DNA of 64,000 nucleotides, from positions 3,239 to 67,238 of IMG/VR virus record IMGVR_UViG_2827986130_000001. One strand, given 5' to 3'. Origin of the DNA: a virus. Lineage: Duplodnaviria > Caudoviricetes. Position numbers and translations under genes: made by a program. The notes under the pieces were generated by a model that had not been told where the DNA came from, did not search any database, and worked only from the letters and a program-made list of their open reading frames with translations. Of this stretch, positions 44,227 through 51,498 are shown piece after piece. How positions within the stretch are numbered: position 1 is the stretch's first letter; the number at the start of each line of letters is the position of its first letter.

Positions 44227-44858
44227 TGGCTGGTTTCGAGACGTTCGAACGCGATCTCCGGTTCGCGACCAAGGGGCTGAAGCCCGAGGAGATCAACAAG
44301 GGACTGGCGAAGTTCGCTCGAGCCGAGCTTCGCCGGGTGATCACCTCCGGTCAGGCCAGCACGAGCTACGAGCGCTATGTCAACGGCGTGAAGGGTGCTG
44401 TCGAGGAGAGCGTCAAGGCACCGGGACCGATCCTCTACGAGTTCGTCAACTGGCCGCTGGTGATCCGTGCCGCTCTCGCCGAGTTGCAGCGCCGGTCGCC
44501 GCGACGGTCGGGGCGATATGCCGGCGGTTTCATCGTGCTGGCCAATGGTGCAACGGCACCGGATTATTCACGTATTCCGATCGATGCCGAGATCGTCATC
44601 TTCAATGCCCGTCCCTATACCCGCAAGATCGAGATCGGCGCCAACAAGACCGGTAAGCGGCATGTCGATGGGGCCAAATCCGCCATGGCGCGCCGGTTCA
44701 AGGATGCCTTCAAGTTCGAGACGCGGTTTCTGAACATCGCCGCCGGCATTCACCCGGAGGTGCCGTATCGGCTCAGGAATAGCCAAGGACGGCGCAAGGA
44801 TCGGCAGGCAGGTGGCCTGCTCACCTATCCGTCCCTCGTCATCAATGCGGTGCGCTGA
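44226..44858 (+). CDS. Tail completion/neck protein (HK97 gp10-like)
   Basis: SPRRSGRY, N..PY.RKIE.G. Confidence 0.7.
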   Translation: MAGFETFERDLRFATKGLKPEEINKGLAKFARAELRRVITSGQASTSYERYVNGVKGAVEESVKAPGPILYEFVNWPLVIRAALAELQRRSPRRSGRYAGGFIVLANGATAPDYSRIPIDAEIVIFNARPYTRKIEIGANKTGKRHVDGAKSAMARRFKDAFKFETRFLNIAAGIHPEVPYRLRNSQGRRKDRQAGGLLTYPSLVINAVR

Positions 44859-45262
44859 TGTCCAGTTACGCGGCTTTCGAGGTCATCGAACAATATCTGC
44901 GGGCGCAGTGGACGACCACGGAACTGGTGTTCGAAAACGACGATTTCCACCTGCATGGAACTCCGGCTCCGTTCGTCTATGTCGAGATCGTCGGCAATAC
45001 CTACGACCAGGCGTCGATCGGCGGCGGGACCGACAATCTCTGGCGGGAATTCGGCCAGCTCTATCTCCACGTCATGACGCCGAACGGCACCGGTAGCGGA
45101 CAGGCACGGCAGTACTGTGACCAGTTGCTCGCACAGTTCGTCGGCTCGGACATCGGCGCTTTGACCTTCCGCGAATCCTCGGTCGGTATGGGCGAGCCCG
45201 GCCAGACCTTCGGCAATTACTACGCCATGACGGCGAGCATCACCTGGTATCGAGACGAATAG
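44858..45262 (+). CDS. Tail terminator-like protein (DUF4128-like)
   Basis: FEN, G.L.LHV..P.G.G; precedes tail tube. Confidence 0.7.
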   Translation: MSSYAAFEVIEQYLRAQWTTTELVFENDDFHLHGTPAPFVYVEIVGNTYDQASIGGGTDNLWREFGQLYLHVMTPNGTGSGQARQYCDQLLAQFVGSDIGALTFRESSVGMGEPGQTFGNYYAMTASITWYRDE

Positions 45263-45472: not shown

Positions 45473-46942
45473 ATGTCCGATGCAAACCGCACCCGGCTTG
45501 CGCATGTGCGCGAAACCACCCTCGGCACGACGCCTACCACGCCCCGTATGCGTACCGCGCGCATGACCGGCGAGCAGATCCAGTTCATGCCGCAGACCGT
45601 CCAGTCCAACGAGATGCGCTCGGATCGCATGAACGCCGATCCGATCCAGGTCAACCAGACCAATCAGGGCGCGGTCAACGGCGAGCTGTCCTATCCGGTC
45701 GACAATTCGCCATTTTCGGACTGGCTGGAATCGCTGTTCTGCCAGGTCTGGGACAACACGCCGACATTCGACAATGAAGGCACCGCCGACAGTGTCGTGA
45801 CCGATGCCGGCACGACGACGGACACCTATGTCGTGGCGTCCGGTGGTGCTGCTGTTGTCGCTGGTCATCTTGTCCGGGCCACCGGTTTCACCAACGCGGG
45901 CAACAACCAGATCTTCCGCGCGGCATCCTCGACGGGAACGACGATTGTCGGCTCCTCGCTCAGCCTGACAGCTGAAACCGCACCGCCTGCTGCTGCAAAG
46001 CTCAAGGTCGTCGGCTTCCAGGGTGCATCGGGCGATCTGGTTGCAGTGGCGGACGGCATCACCTCAACCGCGCTGGACTTCACCACGCTCGGGCTCAATG
46101 TCGGATCGTGGATCAAGATCGGCGGCACCGCCACCGGCGACAAGTTCGCAACCGCAGCCTGCAACGGCTGGGCGCGGATCACTGTCATTGCTGCCCAGAA
46201 GATCACGCTCGACAACCTGCCGACCGGCTGGACGACCGACGCCGGCACCGGCAAGACGCTCAAGGTGTGGTTCGGTGACCAGCTCAAGAACGGCACCGAT
46301 ACGATAGGCCAGACGCTGGAACGCGGTTTCCTCGCGCAGACGACCCCGACCTACCTGATCTCGCGCGGCATGGTGGCCGGGCAAGGTGAGTTCCGGTTCG
46401 AGAGCGAGCAGATCGCAACGTGGTCGATCACCTTCCAAGGCCTGACCGGCGAATTCACCCCGACCAGCCTTGACGCATCGCCGGATGCGGCAACCACCAA
46501 CGCCATCATGGCGGCATCAGTCAATGTCGGGCGCATCGCCGAAAACGGGGCCATTCTCTCGGACAAGAACTATATCCGCTCGGTGACGGTCTCCATCAAC
46601 AACAACCTCCGCAATCTCGGCGGCATCCGTTCCGATGGTCTTGTAGGACCGGAAGACATCGGCAAGGGCTCCGCCGATGTTACCGCGCAGATGGAGACCT
46701 ATTTCGGTTCCAGCACCCTGTTGGCCAAGCTATTCGCCCAGACTGTCACAAACATGAACATCCGCATCGCCAAGGACAGCCAGGCCATGGTGTGGGCGCT
46801 GCCGAGGCTGACCTATACCGATGGCTCGGCCAATGCGACCGGCAAGAATACCGATGTCATGCTGCCGCTCACGGCGACGGCGTCGATCGATGAGCTGACG
46901 TCGAGCCATATCATGCTGGATCGCCTCGAATACTACGAGTGA
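45473..46942 (+). CDS. Tail tube (major tail) protein with inserted beta domains
   Basis: ETTLGTTP, SNEMRSDR, INNNLR, ETYF motifs; position. Confidence 0.85.
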   Translation: MSDANRTRLAHVRETTLGTTPTTPRMRTARMTGEQIQFMPQTVQSNEMRSDRMNADPIQVNQTNQGAVNGELSYPVDNSPFSDWLESLFCQVWDNTPTFDNEGTADSVVTDAGTTTDTYVVASGGAAVVAGHLVRATGFTNAGNNQIFRAASSTGTTIVGSSLSLTAETAPPAAAKLKVVGFQGASGDLVAVADGITSTALDFTTLGLNVGSWIKIGGTATGDKFATAACNGWARITVIAAQKITLDNLPTGWTTDAGTGKTLKVWFGDQLKNGTDTIGQTLERGFLAQTTPTYLISRGMVAGQGEFRFESEQIATWSITFQGLTGEFTPTSLDASPDAATTNAIMAASVNVGRIAENGAILSDKNYIRSVTVSINNNLRNLGGIRSDGLVGPEDIGKGSADVTAQMETYFGSSTLLAKLFAQTVTNMNIRIAKDSQAMVWALPRLTYTDGSANATGKNTDVMLPLTATASIDELTSSHIMLDRLEYYE

Positions 46943-46947
46943 CCTGA

Positions 46948-47029
46948 TCCCGCCCGACAGCGGGACGAACTTGGCCAAGAAGGCGGGCGGCGTTGTCGGA
47001 CGCCGCTCGCCACCCTTCCGACAAAGGTG
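46948..47029 (+). promoter_or_regulatory. Three-hairpin RNA element with complementary loops
   Basis: Loops CCGACA (46954-59), TGTCGG (46994-99), CCGACA (47018-23). Confidence 0.6.
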
Positions 47030-47033
47030 AAAC

Positions 47034-47867
47034 ATGAACCTCACGACCCATCGTCGCCGCTGGGGCGACAACGACCATTATTTCGGGCCATTTACTTACG
47101 CTCGGGACAGGCATGGATATAGGCCGCTCGCCATTATCCTGCAGTCTGGCGAAGATGAATATCCTGGTGCCCAATTGCGCATCAGCGGCTTCGGCCACAC
47201 GTTCATCACAGCAGTTCCGCATTGGCTGATTGGGCCTTATGTCGGCTGGCGCGATCTCAGCCATGCCGATTGGGCGAAGCCTGGGCCAGGTGGGAGGAAA
47301 GGCTATGTCGTGGTGGATCGTCGCGAGTATGGCTTCACGCTTTCTGACGGCCATATGTCCGTCAAACTAGGCCGTCAGACAATGGACAGCAGCACCACAC
47401 GCGATTGGGGTTGCTTTCTCCCGTGGACCCAGTGGCGTCACGTCAAGCGGCGTTACTTCGATGCCGAAGGCAATGTCTATTATGACGTTGTTGATAGTGG
47501 CACATACAATGACCGCCCACACCGCTTTGAAGTCGAGCGGATGATTGAGAAGTCATGTCCTGCAAAACGGTTCTCGTTTAAGGATTTCGACGGGGAAGAA
47601 GGCATTGCCTCCGTTCGGATCAGTGAGGGCGAATGGGCTTTTGGTACAGGCCTGTTCAAGTGGCTGTCCCTGTTCCGCCCACGCAAGAAAGTGCGCGCGC
47701 TCGACATCGAGTTCTCAATCGAAACAGGGCGGCGCAAGGGTTCGTGGAAGGGCGGCACGTTGGGTTCCCACTCGGCAATCAAAGACATTGACGAGTGGCA
47801 CAAGGAAGCTTTCCAGCGCTATTGCTCCGAAAACAATATGACCTTCATCGGCGAGGTGATGAAATGA
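47034..47867 (+). CDS. Moron-like hypothetical protein between tail tube and chaperone
   Basis: Aromatic/basic 277 aa ORF with more AT-rich codons than flanks. Confidence 0.75.
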   Translation: MNLTTHRRRWGDNDHYFGPFTYARDRHGYRPLAIILQSGEDEYPGAQLRISGFGHTFITAVPHWLIGPYVGWRDLSHADWAKPGPGGRKGYVVVDRREYGFTLSDGHMSVKLGRQTMDSSTTRDWGCFLPWTQWRHVKRRYFDAEGNVYYDVVDSGTYNDRPHRFEVERMIEKSCPAKRFSFKDFDGEEGIASVRISEGEWAFGTGLFKWLSLFRPRKKVRALDIEFSIETGRRKGSWKGGTLGSHSAIKDIDEWHKEAFQRYCSENNMTFIGEVMK

Positions 47868-48283
47868 CCATCAAGCTTTCCTCGCTGAAGGCCGACCTCG
47901 CACGCGAGGAAAAGGGCGACTGGATTGAATATCCGGACTGGCCCGACGTTGCCTTCAATGTCTCCTCCCTGCATCTCCCTGCTTTCGTGACGGCGCGCGA
48001 TCTGCTGTTGCAGCGCATGGCCAAGAAGCACGGCCGCAAGTCGGTTCCGCGCGAGGAAATGACAGCGGAATTCGGCAAGCTCTATGCCGAGCACATCCTG
48101 CACGACTGGCGCGGCATCGATGTCGAATACAGCCCGGATGCGGCACGCGATATCCTCTCCAATCCCGAATATCGCAATGTCGTCGCGGCCGTCGAATGGT
48201 GCGCCGCCAAGGTCTCCGACGTTGACATCCAATTCGTGGAGACCGCCTCAAAAAACTCCGCGCGGCCTTCCGATGGCGCCTGA
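47864..48283 (+). CDS. Tail assembly chaperone (gpG-like)
   Basis: EEKGDW, ILHDWRG, YSP motifs; slippery site near 3' end. Confidence 0.8.
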   Translation: MTIKLSSLKADLAREEKGDWIEYPDWPDVAFNVSSLHLPAFVTARDLLLQRMAKKHGRKSVPREEMTAEFGKLYAEHILHDWRGIDVEYSPDAARDILSNPEYRNVVAAVEWCAAKVSDVDIQFVETASKNSARPSDGA

Positions 48284-48747: not shown

Positions 48748-51498
48748 ATGACTGTTCAACTTTCAGCTCTCCGCGTCAGTGCTGACCTCAATGCATCCGG
48801 TTTTGTGTCGGGTGCATCGCAGGTCACCAAGGCCGAGCAGGACATGGTTGCGGGCGCGCGGCAGGTGTCGGTCGCGCTTGCCGATCAGCAGGGCAAGGTC
48901 AGCGCGGCGGGCAACCCGCTTGCTCGGCTGTCGCGTCAGTATATCGATGGGTACGGCTCGGCGCAGCGCTTCGAGAGCGGGCTGCGTTCGCTCAATCGGA
49001 TGCTGGAAAAGGGCGAGATCGAAGCGCGTCAGGCCGAAGCCGTCTACACCGGCATGGCGCAGAAGCTCGGGCTTGTCGCCAATGCAGCTGATGTGACCGC
49101 ACAAGGCTACGCTCGCCTTGGCGGGGTCATCGATACCGTCAACACCAAACTTGCACAGCAATCCAGTCTGGCGGCCACGGCAGCAACCGGGCTGGGGCGT
49201 ATCGGCGGTGTAAACGACAACGAAGCATCGTTCCGTCGCCGCAACATGACCTATCAGGCGTTCGACGTGGTGCAGATGGCGGCGCTCGGTCAGGCCCCGG
49301 CGATGCTGGCGCTGCAGCAGGGGCCGCAGATCGCGCAGCTTTATGCCGGTCCGGGTGGGGTTACAGCGGCGCTATCCGATGCGGCGATGGTCGCTACCCG
49401 TCTGATAGGCGTTCTTCGTGCCGTGGGTCCGGCTGCGCTCGGCGTCGGTACGGCGTACAGCTTTGTCAGCGAAGAGGTCCGCAAGGCCACGGGACAAGCC
49501 GCTTCCTTCGGCGAGGTTGCCATGGCCTCGCTTGCGCTGCTGTCGCGTGCTGTTGAGCCTCTCACCGGGCCGGTGTTTGAAGCCGCCTTCTATGCCTTCG
49601 AACGTCTGGGAAGTGCCGCCCTTGATTGGGCTGACCTGATCGTCAGCAGCTTCAACAAGGTCGGATACGATATCGGGTTCATATTCGGTGAGGCTGGAAC
49701 GGCAATCGAGGCAGCAATCGTCGGATCGTTGAATGTTGGCATTCGTGCACTCAATGGATTCACCGAGAAGGCAATTGCCGCGATCAATTCCATCATCGAG
49801 GGATGGAATAAGCTCGGTGTCCATATTGGCATGGGCGTCGGCGGGCTGGACCCATCCACCGGCAGAATTCGCGAGTTCCAGAACGACGCAGCCGCCCAGC
49901 TTGCCGAAGCGGTTGCGGCGCGCAATGCCTATGTCGCAGGCAACAATACGCCGGTCAGGGATGGGCTCCGCGGCGTCGGTGGGGAGGTTATAGACCGCCG
50001 AACCGCAAGCAAGTCCCTGACCGACCTCCAAGCGCTTGGCAGTGTCTCGTTTGCGGAGTCGATCAAGGGCGCTTCTGGGCTCGCTGGTGAGGTGTCACGA
50101 ATTAACAGCCAGGTCTCGCAGATCGGCGTTGATGCAGGTTCGTCGCGGGAGCGAGTGATCGATCTTGGCGCGGCATGGGACGCAGCGCGCCGGTCCCAGA
50201 TCGCATCGTCGCAGGCCCTGGCAGAACAGCTTCGTTCGACTGAGGCTCTGTTGAAGGATAGGCAGGCATCGATCCGAGATGCGGCGAAGACGCCGGTTGA
50301 TGTTGTGTTCGGCGACGCCAGCAAGATCAACAATGCCACAGGCGCGATCACTTCAGCTACGTCTGCCATCAACGGCGCCTTTGCGGCCATGGATCAGGGA
50401 CGCATGACGGCGAGCAGCGTCTTCAGCGTCATAGAGATGGTCAGGCAGTCAATGCTTGGTATGGGTGGCGATGCGCAGTCGATCAACGCCTGGATCGACA
50501 TTCTGGTCAAAGCCGAGCTTCAAGTCAGGGCGCTAAATGGCGATGTGAAGACGCTCCGGGAACTGATCACCAGCATCCCCGACAAGACCATCAACATCAA
50601 GATCAACGAGACGACGACGCGCACCACCTATGGCAACGGCGTCAACGTCTATCGCAGCAACGGTGGAGCGGATTCTGGCGGTTCCTCGCCGTCCAATTCC
50701 CAGATCATGTCCGGGCTTGGTGGCTATGAGGGTGATTTCTCCATCGATTACCCATGGGGCACCGCCTACACCAGCACTTATGAGATCGGCAGCGGTCGGA
50801 GACCGGTCGTCCATGCCCCGACCGCCTATGCCAAGGGCGGTATCGCGACGGAAGCGTCGATCTTCGGCGAGGCTGGACCGGAGGCGGCAGTGCCGCTCCC
50901 AGACGGCCGCACCATTCCTGTCACGCTGTCAGGCGGCGGCATGCTCGCGGCGATCGAGGCCAACACGGCGCTGACCGTTGACCAGATCGAGCGGCTGATC
51001 GGAATCACCAACACGATGTCGGGCGATATCCTGGCCATGCTGCGGCGGTCACAGGCATCGGCCAGCGCCAGCCTTGGCAGCAGGGCGACAGGCTCCAGCG
51101 GAGCAGCCACGGGCGGCGTTGGCGGCGGCATCTGGATGGAGCCCACGGTCAAGGCGATCAACACCGGCTATGGCGCCTATATTCCCGGCAAGACCGGCTA
51201 TGCGACGGGCGGCATGATGGGGCCGTTCGGTTCGGGCTCGACGGATTCGATGTTTGCGAAATTCATGTTTCGTCCCGACGAGACGATCTCGATCCATACC
51301 CCTGCGCAGCGCAAGGCGGTGGTCGATGCTCTTGATCGGGCTGGCGAGGGCGGCGGCACATCGGTCAGCTTCGGCGACATCATCATCCAGCTTCCGGCCG
51401 GCGCCGATCAGCGGCAGGGGCAACAGGCAGGACGTGCGGCCGCCGACGAGTTCACGCGCCGCGTCCGGGGCGTGATGGGGGCGAGGCTCCATGGTTGA
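48748..51498 (+). CDS. Tail tape measure protein
   Basis: Ala/Gly-rich, YQAFDV...GQ.P...LQQGPQI, AKGG...GEAGPEA.VPL. Confidence 0.92.
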   Translation: MTVQLSALRVSADLNASGFVSGASQVTKAEQDMVAGARQVSVALADQQGKVSAAGNPLARLSRQYIDGYGSAQRFESGLRSLNRMLEKGEIEARQAEAVYTGMAQKLGLVANAADVTAQGYARLGGVIDTVNTKLAQQSSLAATAATGLGRIGGVNDNEASFRRRNMTYQAFDVVQMAALGQAPAMLALQQGPQIAQLYAGPGGVTAALSDAAMVATRLIGVLRAVGPAALGVGTAYSFVSEEVRKATGQAASFGEVAMASLALLSRAVEPLTGPVFEAAFYAFERLGSAALDWADLIVSSFNKVGYDIGFIFGEAGTAIEAAIVGSLNVGIRALNGFTEKAIAAINSIIEGWNKLGVHIGMGVGGLDPSTGRIREFQNDAAAQLAEAVAARNAYVAGNNTPVRDGLRGVGGEVIDRRTASKSLTDLQALGSVSFAESIKGASGLAGEVSRINSQVSQIGVDAGSSRERVIDLGAAWDAARRSQIASSQALAEQLRSTEALLKDRQASIRDAAKTPVDVVFGDASKINNATGAITSATSAINGAFAAMDQGRMTASSVFSVIEMVRQSMLGMGGDAQSINAWIDILVKAELQVRALNGDVKTLRELITSIPDKTINIKINETTTRTTYGNGVNVYRSNGGADSGGSSPSNSQIMSGLGGYEGDFSIDYPWGTAYTSTYEIGSGRRPVVHAPTAYAKGGIATEASIFGEAGPEAAVPLPDGRTIPVTLSGGGMLAAIEANTALTVDQIERLIGITNTMSGDILAMLRRSQASASASLGSRATGSSGAATGGVGGGIWMEPTVKAINTGYGAYIPGKTGYATGGMMGPFGSGSTDSMFAKFMFRPDETISIHTPAQRKAVVDALDRAGEGGGTSVSFGDIIIQLPAGADQRQGQQAGRAAADEFTRRVRGVMGARLHG

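What the first reader, a model, noticed from the sequence alone, without database searches (positions are those of the whole stretch)
46948..47036. Three-hairpin kissing-loop switch downstream of the tail-tube gene
Seen: hairpin 1 is tcccgc-[CCGACA]-gcggga (46948-65). Hairpin 2 is ggcgggcggcgt-[TGTCGG]-acgccgctcgcc (46982-47011). Hairpin 3 is cacc(c)tt-[CCGACA]-aaggtg (47011-29), and its 3' arm is the Shine-Dalgarno of the next gene. The middle loop is the exact complement of both flanking loops. Inference: mutually exclusive loop-loop pairings could set translation or mRNA processing of the downstream gene (ancestrally the tail chaperone) relative to the tail tube. I do not recognise this as a named RNA family.
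Basis: partly seen in the sequence, partly recalled or inferred. Interest (0 to 1): 0.75.

Follow-up and report, generated by a model that had tools for sequence, protein, structure and literature searches.

The report
Kissing-loop RNA after tail-tube gene
The 91-base gap after the tail-tube gene of this prophage folds into a conserved, previously undescribed RNA whose hairpin tips are complementary to one another and change together in related phages, and it probably sets how much of the next gene is made relative to tube protein.

Summary
Observation confirmed. The three hairpins lie at the stated coordinates with loops CCGACA / TGTCGG / CCGACA. This triple occurs once in the window and in 0 of 80 shuffled strands.

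It is a real, conserved element. By my labelling, 46 of 67 distinct homologous tube loci carry it. A covariance model finds 39 strong copies, and only one in the window. All 18 pairs of H1 and H2, and 3 of 4 of H3, show compensatory changes. The loops change in concert: CCGGCA/TGCCGG, CCCACA/TGTGGG, CCAGCA/TGCTGG, GACCAA/TTGGTC. One-sided loop changes are mostly G·U wobbles, which points to + strand RNA.

The same architecture occurs in Caulobacter phages phiCbK, CcrColossus and C1, Roseobacter phage RDJL Phi 2 and Azospirillum phage Cd. There is no Rfam match.

Added parts are a covarying perfect palindrome between H1 and H2 and, in relatives, a further target copy overlapping the start codon.

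Function is inferred: the H2 loop masks the ribosome-binding region of the next gene, and H1, 3-8 nt past the stop codon, competes. Here the next gene is an inserted Acb3 anti-CBASS gene rather than the chaperone.

The scan earlier noted analogous elements on other DNA, in T5-like phages.

The parts
45473..46942 (+). Tail tube gene (Phage_tube_2 family). The start is taken as ATG 45473 (MSDANR...), as in the relatives.
   Evidence: ORF; Pfam PF18906, E 4.4e-34; phrog_290, E 5.9e-54; for the N-termini of relatives.
46940..46942 (+). Stop codon TGA of the tube gene, 5 nt before H1.
   Evidence: The stop-to-H1 distance is 3-8 nt (median 5) in 39 copies.
46948..46965 (+). Hairpin H1: 6-bp stem, loop CCGACA (46954-46959). 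A copy of the target hexamer, proposed competitor.
   Evidence: I22. All 6 pairs show compensatory changes. The H1-H2 loop cells are 97.0% paired.
46970..46979 (+). Hp: perfect palindrome CTTGGCCAAG, a small hairpin or self-complementary site.
   Evidence: 38 of 39 copies have an even perfect palindrome here and the 39th an odd one. Mean half-length is 5.5 against 2.0 in shuffles.
46982..47011 (+). Hairpin H2: 12-bp G+C-rich stem, loop TGTCGG (46994-46999), complementary to the other loops.
   Evidence: I4. All 12 pairs show compensatory changes. No T-run follows.
47011..47029 (+). Hairpin H3: loop CCGACA (47018-47023). Its 3' arm AAGGTG (47024-47029) is the Shine-Dalgarno sequence.
   Evidence: 3 of the 4 modelled pairs show compensatory changes and the H2-H3 loop cells are 98.3% paired. 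H3 is not formed in the single-sequence minimum-energy fold.
47034..47867 (+). Acb3-family (CBASS inhibitor) gene, inserted between the element and the chaperone gene.
   Evidence: Pfam PF25187, E 9.1e-63; phrog_7203. Relatives have the chaperone here.
47864..48283 (+). Tail assembly chaperone gene. Its ATG overlaps the Acb3 stop (ATGA, 47864-47867).
   Evidence: sequence; phrog_313, E 3.2e-11. Its N-terminus MTIKLSSLKADL matches the relatives.

Best explanation
The whole 91-nt gap between the tail-tube gene and the next gene is one structured, cis-acting part of the late mRNA (+ strand). It has four parts.
- H1: a small hairpin about 5 nt after the tube stop codon.
- Hp: a short perfect palindrome.
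- H2: a long G+C-rich hairpin.
- H3: a small hairpin whose 3' arm is the Shine-Dalgarno sequence.

The 6-nt loop of H2 (UGUCGG) can pair with the identical hexamer CCGACA shown by H1 and by H3. In many relatives it can also pair with a further copy that overlaps the start codon.

Shown here: the hairpins and the loop-to-loop complementarity are under selection.

Inferred: pairing of the H2 loop with the copies that flank the Shine-Dalgarno sequence hinders ribosome binding. This keeps translation of the gene after the tube gene low relative to the abundant tube protein, and possibly, through polarity, lowers the tail genes further downstream. The H1 copy competes for the single H2 loop and so sets what fraction of messages is repressed. 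Because H1 sits within reach of a ribosome stopping at the tube stop codon, that competition may be coupled to tube translation. The direction of any such coupling is unknown.

In this phage the element now precedes an inserted Acb3 anti-CBASS gene, and the chaperone gene is coupled to it by an ATGA overlap.
For: Conservation. Among 67 distinct homologous tube loci, I labelled 46 as carrying a two- to four-hairpin element with complementary loops. Model R1 finds 39 copies at E < 1e-6 in 79 sources, and only one in the window.

Stems. 94.5% of cells are paired against 73.4% in shuffles (0 of 500 as high) and 41-53% when partners are slid. H1 has compensatory changes at 6 of 6 pairs, H2 at 12 of 12 and H3 at 3 of 4.

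Loops.
- RNAalifold on a plain MAFFT alignment returns only the H2-loop:H3-loop helix.
- All copies change in concert in L025/L070 (CCGGCA/TGCCGG), L030 (CCCACA/TGTGGG), L051 (CCAGCA/TGCTGG, including the copy near the ATG) and the Azospirillum phage Cd group (GACCAA/TTGGTC).
- These variants are nested among CCGACA carriers on the tube tree.

RNA, + strand. G.U against A.C counts are 49:18 in the stems and 11:1 in the H1-H2 loop pairs.

Link to translation.
- The 3' arm of H3 is the Shine-Dalgarno sequence.
- A copy ends within -1 to +5 nt of the ATG in 20 of 51 intergenic regions, and 14 of these overlap the A of the ATG.
- H1 starts 3-8 nt after the upstream stop codon even where that ORF is not the tube gene (L097, L004).
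- Two relatives with an inserted gene (L034, L016) carry a second H3-plus-copy unit in front of the chaperone gene.
- Relatives without the element have the chaperone ATG within 3-40 nt of the tube stop.

Not a dispersed repeat. There is one hit per genome in 4 of 5 host genomes.
Against: No expression or structure-probing data exist; no RNA run was listed. All function is therefore inference.

- In the window's own minimum-energy fold H3 is not formed.
- With a median 2-nt H2-H3 linker, a hairpin-hairpin kiss in cis looks impossible, so the best-conserved contact needs H3 open or another molecule.
- In the Bosea / EBPR siphovirus 3 variants (L033, L073, L080) the CCGACA hairpin lies about 35-45 nt before the ATG and does not contain the Shine-Dalgarno sequence. 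This fits a purely architectural role better.
- 21 of 67 relatives do without the element, so it is dispensable.
- The core CCGAC is kept across very distant phages. Pairing alone does not require that, and it could mean that a protein or another RNA reads it.
- The perfect palindrome Hp is not explained by this model.
- The alignment used for the stem counts was fitted to a model containing those stems, which favours them. The loops were unpaired in that model.
Confidence: 0.5

Rival explanations
1. Attenuator or stabiliser. H2, perhaps with the whole hairpin cluster, is a leaky transcription stop or a 3'-end protecting structure that makes tube mRNA more abundant than downstream mRNA. The loop-loop contacts only compact the fold so that it resists RNases or pauses the polymerase.
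For: Homologous tube genes in Vibrio phage RZ01, Rhodobacter phage RcSpartan and Pseudomonas phage Ab26 are followed at the same place by a plain G+C-rich hairpin with a T-run. EBPR siphovirus 3 has such a hairpin plus the element. In the L033/L073 variants the kissing hairpins bracket about 95 nt and are not at the Shine-Dalgarno sequence. A paper seen only in a search listing proposes that hairpin clusters terminate transcription (PMC8355165). Earlier AI notes of this scan read the T5-like analogues this way.
Against: No T-run follows H2, and no terminator-like site was called in the gap. This reading does not explain why target copies flank the Shine-Dalgarno sequence and overlap the ATG, or why H1 keeps a fixed distance from the stop codon.
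Confidence: 0.2
2. Trans-acting antisense. A processed RNA containing H2 is released from the abundant tube transcript. Through its loop it acts on the ribosome-binding regions of other transcripts, as the c4 RNA of phage P1 does. The upstream copy belongs to the precursor fold.
For: One antisense loop is paired with identical short targets both upstream and at the ribosome-binding site of the next gene, and relatives carry different specificities. This is the layout I recall for P1/P7 c4. From PMC8198154 I read passages stating only that c4 is an antisense RNA needed to repress ant within the c4-icd-ant operon. Action in trans removes the steric problem of the 2-nt linker.
Against: No other CCGACA hairpin or ribosome-binding-site target above chance occurs in the window: 7 other loop-hairpins against a null of 4.2, and a single model hit. 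There is no evidence of processing and no match to Rfam's C4 family or any other.
Confidence: 0.12
3. RNA-RNA assembly. The complementary loops together with the self-complementary Hp join two or more messages (a dimer or a network), for example to coordinate or sequester late tail mRNAs.
For: Hp is a perfect palindrome through its centre in 38 of 39 copies. The centres are GCGC, CGCG, GGCC, CCGG, TGCA and CATG, which a hairpin loop does not need. The same feature occurs in phiCbK, CcrColossus, C1 and RDJL Phi 2. Each RNA carries one loop of one kind and two to four of the other. A paper seen in a listing and abstract reports phage-associated RNAs that form homo-oligomers (PMC12286853).
Against: The predicted homodimer gain is not beyond shuffles: median -16.1 against -10 kcal/mol, with the shuffles' 5th percentile at -16.7. 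Palindromy of the centre could instead result from template-switch mutation in a small hairpin. Messages being translated are poor partners for stable dimers.
Confidence: 0.1
4. DNA-level sites. The hexamers, in both orientations, and the palindrome are binding sites of a DNA-binding protein, or they form cruciforms.
For: A change of protein specificity would also make all copies change together. The core CCGAC is conserved across distant phages. The palindrome is symmetric, like an operator.
Against: Each hexamer sits in the loop of a hairpin whose stem covaries. One-sided changes are biased to G.U over A.C, 49:18 and 11:1. The palindrome covaries instead of keeping one sequence. The positions are tied to the stop codon, the Shine-Dalgarno sequence and the ATG.
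Confidence: 0.04

Closest known systems
Guanidine-II riboswitch (mini-ykkC)
   Same: Small G+C-rich hairpins in a leader whose loops kiss, with the contact proposed to control access to a nearby Shine-Dalgarno sequence. Dimer formation competes with the contact within one molecule (passages of PMC9300104).
   Different: Its loops are ACGR tetraloops forming two G-C pairs and depend on guanidinium. Here the loops are 6 nt, fully Watson-Crick complementary and vary in sequence between phages. There are three to four partners for one loop, no conserved ligand pocket is evident, and the element is intercistronic. No Rfam match.
c4 antisense RNA of phages P1 and P7 (immI operon)
   Same: A phage operon carries an RNA whose loops pair with short targets that occur both upstream and at the ribosome-binding site of the next gene, and related phages differ by matched changes on both sides. 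This layout is recalled. From PMC8198154 I read only that c4 is an antisense RNA repressing ant in the c4-icd-ant operon.
   Different: c4 is a processed trans-acting RNA with two target-binding loops and controls an antirepressor. Here there is one loop, a late structural operon, no evidence of processing and no Rfam C4 match.
Terminator or stabiliser hairpins after major phage structural genes
   Same: Same place and the same presumed purpose, more tube than downstream products. Plain examples follow the homologous tube genes of Vibrio phage RZ01, RcSpartan and Ab26.
   Different: H2 has no T-run. The covarying complementary loops, the copies at the Shine-Dalgarno sequence and ATG, and the palindrome have no counterpart.
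Kissing-loop RNAs after the tail-tube gene of uncultured T5-like phages
   Same: A small hairpin next to the tube stop codon, a long hairpin with a complementary tip, and a look-alike of the target at the chaperone ribosome-binding site (e1-5779273, e1-6104974 and others).
   Different: Other phage lineage and hosts, with no sequence likeness found. Those have two hairpins and often a terminator tail. I did not re-examine those notes here.
   Same: Short hairpins presenting self-complementary (GUGCAC, GCGCGC) or mutually complementary loops that join RNA molecules. The comparison is recalled.
   Different: Nothing shows that this element joins molecules (one search was inconclusive). It is part of an mRNA, not a genome or a packaging RNA.

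Membership tests
Any Rfam 15 family | Score at or above the family's gathering threshold | tested here: not met
   the best hit is BjrC80 on the minus strand, 23 bits against a gathering score of 80; 0 matches at gathering level in 12 element-bearing loci.
Intrinsic (Rho-independent) terminator | G+C-rich hairpin | tested here: met
   H2 has 12 bp, mostly G-C.
Intrinsic (Rho-independent) terminator | Run of T/U directly after the hairpin | tested here: not met
   H2 is followed by ACCCTTCC. No terminator-like site falls in 46940-47036.
Guanidine-II riboswitch (mini-ykkC) | Two hairpins capped by ACGR tetraloops | tested here: not met
   The loops are CCGACA / UGUCGG. No Rfam hit.
P1/P7 c4 antisense RNA | Sequence and structure match to the C4 family | tested here: not met
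   No match at E up to 10 in 46500-47500, nor at gathering level in relatives.
P1/P7 c4 antisense RNA | Processed, trans-acting small RNA | not testable with these tools
   No RNA run was listed.
Structured RNA with loop-loop (kissing or pseudoknot) pairing | Complementarity of the loops kept through changes on both sides in relatives | tested here: met
   2 of 6 positions show double changes in each contact, with 98.3% and 97.0% of cells paired. Whole-hexamer switches appear.
Dispersed genomic repeat (REP / MITE-like) | Many copies per genome | tested here: not met
   One hit in the window and 67-kb record. One hit each in 4 of 5 host genomes of 4.9-7.5 Mb.
Shine-Dalgarno-sequestering hairpin | The Shine-Dalgarno sequence pairs with an upstream complement, with covariation | tested here: met
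   H3 CCTT/AAGG changes to CTCC/GGAG and others. 3 of 4 pairs show double changes. H3 is not formed in the window's single-sequence minimum-energy fold.

The most novel reading that the evidence does not exclude
The element is a multi-state RNA device with no described counterpart. One antisense loop (H2) is shared among a decoy hairpin, which a ribosome terminating on the tube gene unfolds, and two targets that flank the Shine-Dalgarno sequence and cover the start codon. Translation of the abundant upstream gene would then directly gate initiation on the next gene. Alternatively, or in addition, the complementary loops and the self-complementary palindrome join late mRNAs into dimers or networks. 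The same device would be shared by siphophages of Alphaproteobacteria, including phiCbK, and perhaps by T5-like phages.
Probability: 0.2. Interest if true: 0.85.

Novelty: new variant of a known kind. Interest (0 to 1): 0.72.

Why it matters
Long-tailed phages need far more tube protein than chaperone and tape-measure protein, yet the genes are adjacent and co-transcribed. How the ratio is set is known for few phages.

This is a compact RNA element of about 90 nt with unusually clear comparative support: every stem covaries, and whole loop sequences are swapped in concert at three or four sites. It sits exactly at that junction. It also occurs in cultured, tractable phages (phiCbK on Caulobacter, Azospirillum phage Cd, RDJL Phi 2), so the proposed mechanism can be tested directly.

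It is absent from Rfam. I found no description of it in six literature searches of a library limited to open PMC papers and bioRxiv.

The junction is also a landing site for accessory genes: Acb3 here, other small ORFs in L034 and L016. The element may therefore govern expression of anti-defence cargo.

One loop with several competing, matched partners is also a natural design that synthetic biology could use for fixed-ratio expression.

Tried and rejected
- Chance: rejected (0 of 80 shuffled strands).
- Dispersed repeat: rejected.
- Canonical terminator: rejected for lack of a T-run.
- Promoter for the inserted gene: no sigma-70-like site in the gap. This scan does not cover alphaproteobacterial promoter types.
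- Other hairpins with these loops elsewhere in the window: 7 against a null of 4.2, so nothing beyond chance.
- Homodimer energetics by cofold: not distinguishable from shuffles.
- RNA-seq: no RNA holder was listed for window:46500-47500, and read laying was therefore not used.
- Wider prevalence: model R2 in 151 sampled genomes of the order found only the centre genome itself. Few candidates per genome were scored, so this means 'not found in those searched'.
- Tree: the careful search did not finish, so the quick IQ-TREE tree was used. The labels on it were set by eye and by the model. L076 and L077 were labelled 'none' but show a TGTCGG-loop and a CCGACA-loop hairpin respectively.
- Automated loop-complement count: it mis-picked the main hairpin in L028, L054 and L080, and took the downstream partner in L033 and L073. 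These 5 of 51 count as misses there, although searches show the complementary loops.
- Model alignment A5: L030 and L094 have an extra hairpin aligned as H1. Their true H1 lies further upstream.
- Literature: searches gave no description of such an element. Supplements were not consulted.
- Steric statements and the P1 c4, HIV DIS and phi29 comparisons rest on recall, not on a tool.
Full report
WHAT IS THERE

The window is a 64-kb part of a 67-kb IMG/VR provirus record. The finding lies in the late structural operon. The genes in order are:
- a tail terminator gene, 44858-45262;
- the tail tube gene, 45473-46942 (Pfam Phage_tube_2, E 4.4e-34);
- a 91-nt gap;
- an Acb3-family CBASS-inhibitor gene, 47034-47867 (Pfam PF25187, E 9.1e-63);
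- the tail assembly chaperone gene, 47864-48283;
- the tape measure gene, 48748-51498.

- H1 at 46948-46965, loop CCGACA;
- H2 at 46982-47011, 12 pairs, loop TGTCGG;
- H3 at 47011-47029, loop CCGACA, whose 3' arm AAGGTG ends 4 nt before ATG 47034.

IS IT MORE THAN CHANCE

- The hexamer is common in the window: 85 sites against 49 expected.
- I searched for the pattern 'X, reverse complement of X, X, each in a 6-nt loop of a hairpin of at least 4 bp, within 100 nt'. It occurs once in the window and in none of 80 dinucleotide-shuffled strands.
- The single-sequence fold is only mildly better than shuffles, z -2.79. It forms H1 and H2 but not H3.
- The minus strand folds about as well.
- The window alone is therefore suggestive but not conclusive.

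RELATIVES

I collected homologous tube loci from IMG/VR, from one-per-species genomes (Mesorhizobium, Aquamicrobium, Rhizobium, Brucella rhizosphaerae, Bosea, Niveispirillum and others) and from GenBank phages. Of 83 loci with a readable tube stop, 68 differ in the first 140 nt downstream. On a tree of 67 distinct tube proteins I labelled 46 as carrying an element with complementary hairpin loops and 21 as lacking it. Carriers occur in both main branches (quick tree only, because the careful search did not finish). Loci without it have the chaperone ATG 3-40 nt after the tube stop.

A covariance model was built from 11 copies with H1, H2 and H3 as its structure. It finds 39 copies at E < 1e-6 in the window plus 78 loci. 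Exactly one of them is in the window, at 94 bits.

STEMS

The counts below are on the model alignment of the 39 copies.

| Measure | Result |
|---|---|
| Cells forming standard pairs | 94.5% |
| Same, 3' letters shuffled | 73.4% (0 of 500 as high) |
| Same, partners slid by 1-3 columns | 41-53% |
| H1 pairs with changes on both sides | 6 of 6 |
| H2 pairs with changes on both sides | 12 of 12 |
| H3 pairs with changes on both sides | 3 of 4 |

The alignment was fitted to these stems, which favours them. However, the raw sequences show the same swaps, for example TCCCGC/GCGGGA, TCCCCGG/CCGGGGA and TCCCGT/ACGGGA.

LOOPS

The loops were unpaired in the model.
- The H2-H3 loop cells are 98.3% paired and the H1-H2 loop cells 97.0%. 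Each contact has two positions with double changes.
- RNAalifold on a plain MAFFT alignment, where the stems are poorly aligned, returns only the H2-loop:H3-loop helix.
- Whole hexamers are replaced in concert at every copy:
  - CCGGCA/TGCCGG in L025 and L070;
  - CCCACA/TGTGGG/CCCACA in L030;
  - CCAGCA/TGCTGG/CCAGCA, plus a fourth CCAGCA 2 nt before the ATG, in L051;
  - GACCAA/TTGGTC in Azospirillum phage Cd and four relatives;
  - a register shift, TCCGAC/GTCGGA, in L094.
- L051, L030 and L025/L070 are nested among CCGACA carriers on the tube tree, so these are separate events.
- One-sided changes are mostly wobble-compatible, for example CCGAUA in a Brucella-type clade and CCGGCA in L023 and L029.
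- G.U against A.C counts are 11:1 in the H1-H2 loop pairs and 49:18 in the stems. This points to RNA of the + (mRNA) strand rather than duplex DNA or the opposite strand.

ANATOMY THAT BEARS ON FUNCTION

- H1 begins 3-8 nt (median 5) after the upstream stop codon. This holds in L097, where a homing-endonuclease-like ORF is inserted between the tube gene and the element. It also holds in L004, where the upstream ORF is unrelated.
- The H1-H2 linker, which contains the palindrome, is 12-20 nt. The H2-H3 linker is 1-8 nt, median 2.
- I examined 51 intergenic regions: the 39 copies, 8 longer variants and 4 cultured phages. In 20 of them a copy of the target ends between -1 and +5 nt of the start codon. 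In 14 its last A is the A of the ATG (CCGACAUG; CGACCAUG in phage Cd).
- The window lacks this extra copy.
- The targets therefore flank the Shine-Dalgarno sequence on both sides.
- In L034 and L016 another small gene sits after H3. A second 'H3 plus ATG-overlapping copy' unit then precedes the chaperone gene.
- In the window the chaperone ATG instead overlaps the Acb3 stop, as ATGA.
- In L004 the element precedes an Acb3 homologue next to a small-terminase gene, outside a tail module.

THE PALINDROME

All 39 copies have a palindrome between H1 and H2: 38 are even and perfect, and one is odd. Mean half-length is 5.5 against 2.0 in shuffles, and the sequence covaries (TTCTGCGCAGAA, ATTGCGCGCAAT, TTCGTGCACGAA, TTTGCCGGCAAA and others). 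The central four bases are always self-complementary, which a hairpin loop does not require. I cannot explain this. It may reflect template-switch mutation in a small unconstrained hairpin, or a form in which the centre is paired, such as a duplex between two RNAs. A cofold test was inconclusive.

BREADTH

The same architecture occurs after the homologous tube genes of five cultured phages:
- Caulobacter phage phiCbK: H2 loop AAAUCGGGG; CCCCGA(U) at four places, including the loop of the hairpin next to the stop codon and just before the ATG; palindrome CTCAGCGCTGAG.
- Caulobacter phages CcrColossus and C1.
- Roseobacter phage RDJL Phi 2.
- Azospirillum phage Cd.

It was not seen in Vibrio phage RZ01, Pseudomonas phages JG012, M6 and Ab26, or Rhodobacter phage RcSpartan, which have a plain hairpin there; three of these hairpins (RZ01, RcSpartan, Ab26) are followed by a T-run.

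In four of five host genomes the improved model hits only the prophage copy. It found nothing else in 151 sampled genomes of the order.

HOW IT MOST LIKELY WORKS

Shown: a structured RNA whose hairpins and loop complementarities are under selection, tied in position to the stop codon, the Shine-Dalgarno sequence and the start codon.

Inferred:
- The single H2 loop masks the ribosome-binding region of the next gene by pairing beside the Shine-Dalgarno sequence or over the AUG.
- The identical H1 loop competes for it.
- The outcome is a set, low ratio of downstream products to tube protein, possibly amplified by polarity.

A ribosome stopping at the tube stop codon should cover the 5' arm of H1, so the competition may depend on tube translation. 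I cannot tell in which direction.

A geometric caveat is my own estimate from A-form dimensions, not a computation. Stacked hairpin-kiss-hairpin contacts span about 24 bp. A 2-nt H2-H3 linker cannot bridge that, so the H2:H3 contact in cis needs H3 open (a pseudoknot with about 6 nt crossing a 12-bp stem, which is borderline) or another molecule. The 12-20-nt H1-H2 linker could allow a cis kiss if the palindrome is unfolded.

The rivals are a leaky stop or stabiliser, a processed trans-acting antisense RNA like P1 c4, RNA-RNA assembly, and DNA sites. They are weighed in their own sections.

COMPARISON AND NOVELTY

- No Rfam family matches.
- The closest described devices share the principle but fail the membership tests listed. 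They are the guanidine-II riboswitch (PMC9300104, passages), the c4 antisense system (PMC8198154, passages, with the layout recalled) and terminator or stabiliser hairpins.
- Six literature searches found no description.
- Earlier AI notes of this scan describe analogous kissing-loop RNAs after the tube gene of uncultured T5-like phages. There is no sequence likeness to this one, and I did not re-test them.
- I therefore file this as a new variant of a known kind, a cis-acting structured mRNA element with loop-loop pairing. Its multi-partner design is unusual and its comparative support very strong, but there is no functional evidence yet.

Noticed in passing
window 47034-47867: An Acb3-family CBASS-inhibitor gene (Pfam PF25187, E 9.1e-63) is inserted between the tube-gene element and the chaperone gene. 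Its stop overlaps the chaperone ATG (ATGA, 47864-47867). An anti-defence gene thus rides in the late tail operon behind this RNA element.
   Followed up: partly
L034:4055-4330; L016:3988-4314; L097:4048-4623: The junction is an insertion hot spot. Unrelated small ORFs follow H3 in L034 and L016, with a duplicated H3-plus-copy unit before the chaperone gene. In L097 a homing-endonuclease-like ORF (phrog_314) sits between the tube gene and the element.
   Followed up: partly
L004:302-1190: The full element precedes an Acb3 homologue (53% identity) next to a small-terminase gene and after an unrelated ORF. The element and Acb3 may therefore move together as a cassette.
   Followed up: partly
window 46970-46979 and the same place in 38 relatives: A perfect palindrome whose central four bases are always self-complementary (GCGC, CGCG, GGCC, CCGG, TGCA, CATG). 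A hairpin does not need this, and it remains unexplained.
   Followed up: partly
L102:2293-2359 (Pseudomonas phage JG012): The tip of the hairpin after the tube gene (ATGGTG) is complementary to CACCAT just 5' of the Shine-Dalgarno sequence of the next gene. This is a possibly related theme in a phage that lacks the three-hairpin element.
   Followed up: no
L080 / L015 (EBPR siphovirus 3), first 100 nt after the tube stop: A canonical terminator-like hairpin with a T-run precedes a long variant of the element, in which a TGTCGG-loop hairpin and a CCGACA-loop hairpin lie about 90 nt apart.
   Followed up: no
window, whole: CCGACA/TGTCGG is over-represented: 85 sites against 49.1 +/- 7.0 in shuffles. 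This is probably a codon effect (GCC-GAC and the like). No other loop-hairpin context above chance was found.
   Followed up: partly
window 46976-47083, minus strand: A weak Rfam match to Bradyrhizobiaceae sRNA BjrC80 (23 bits, gathering score 80, E 0.048), taken as chance.
   Followed up: no
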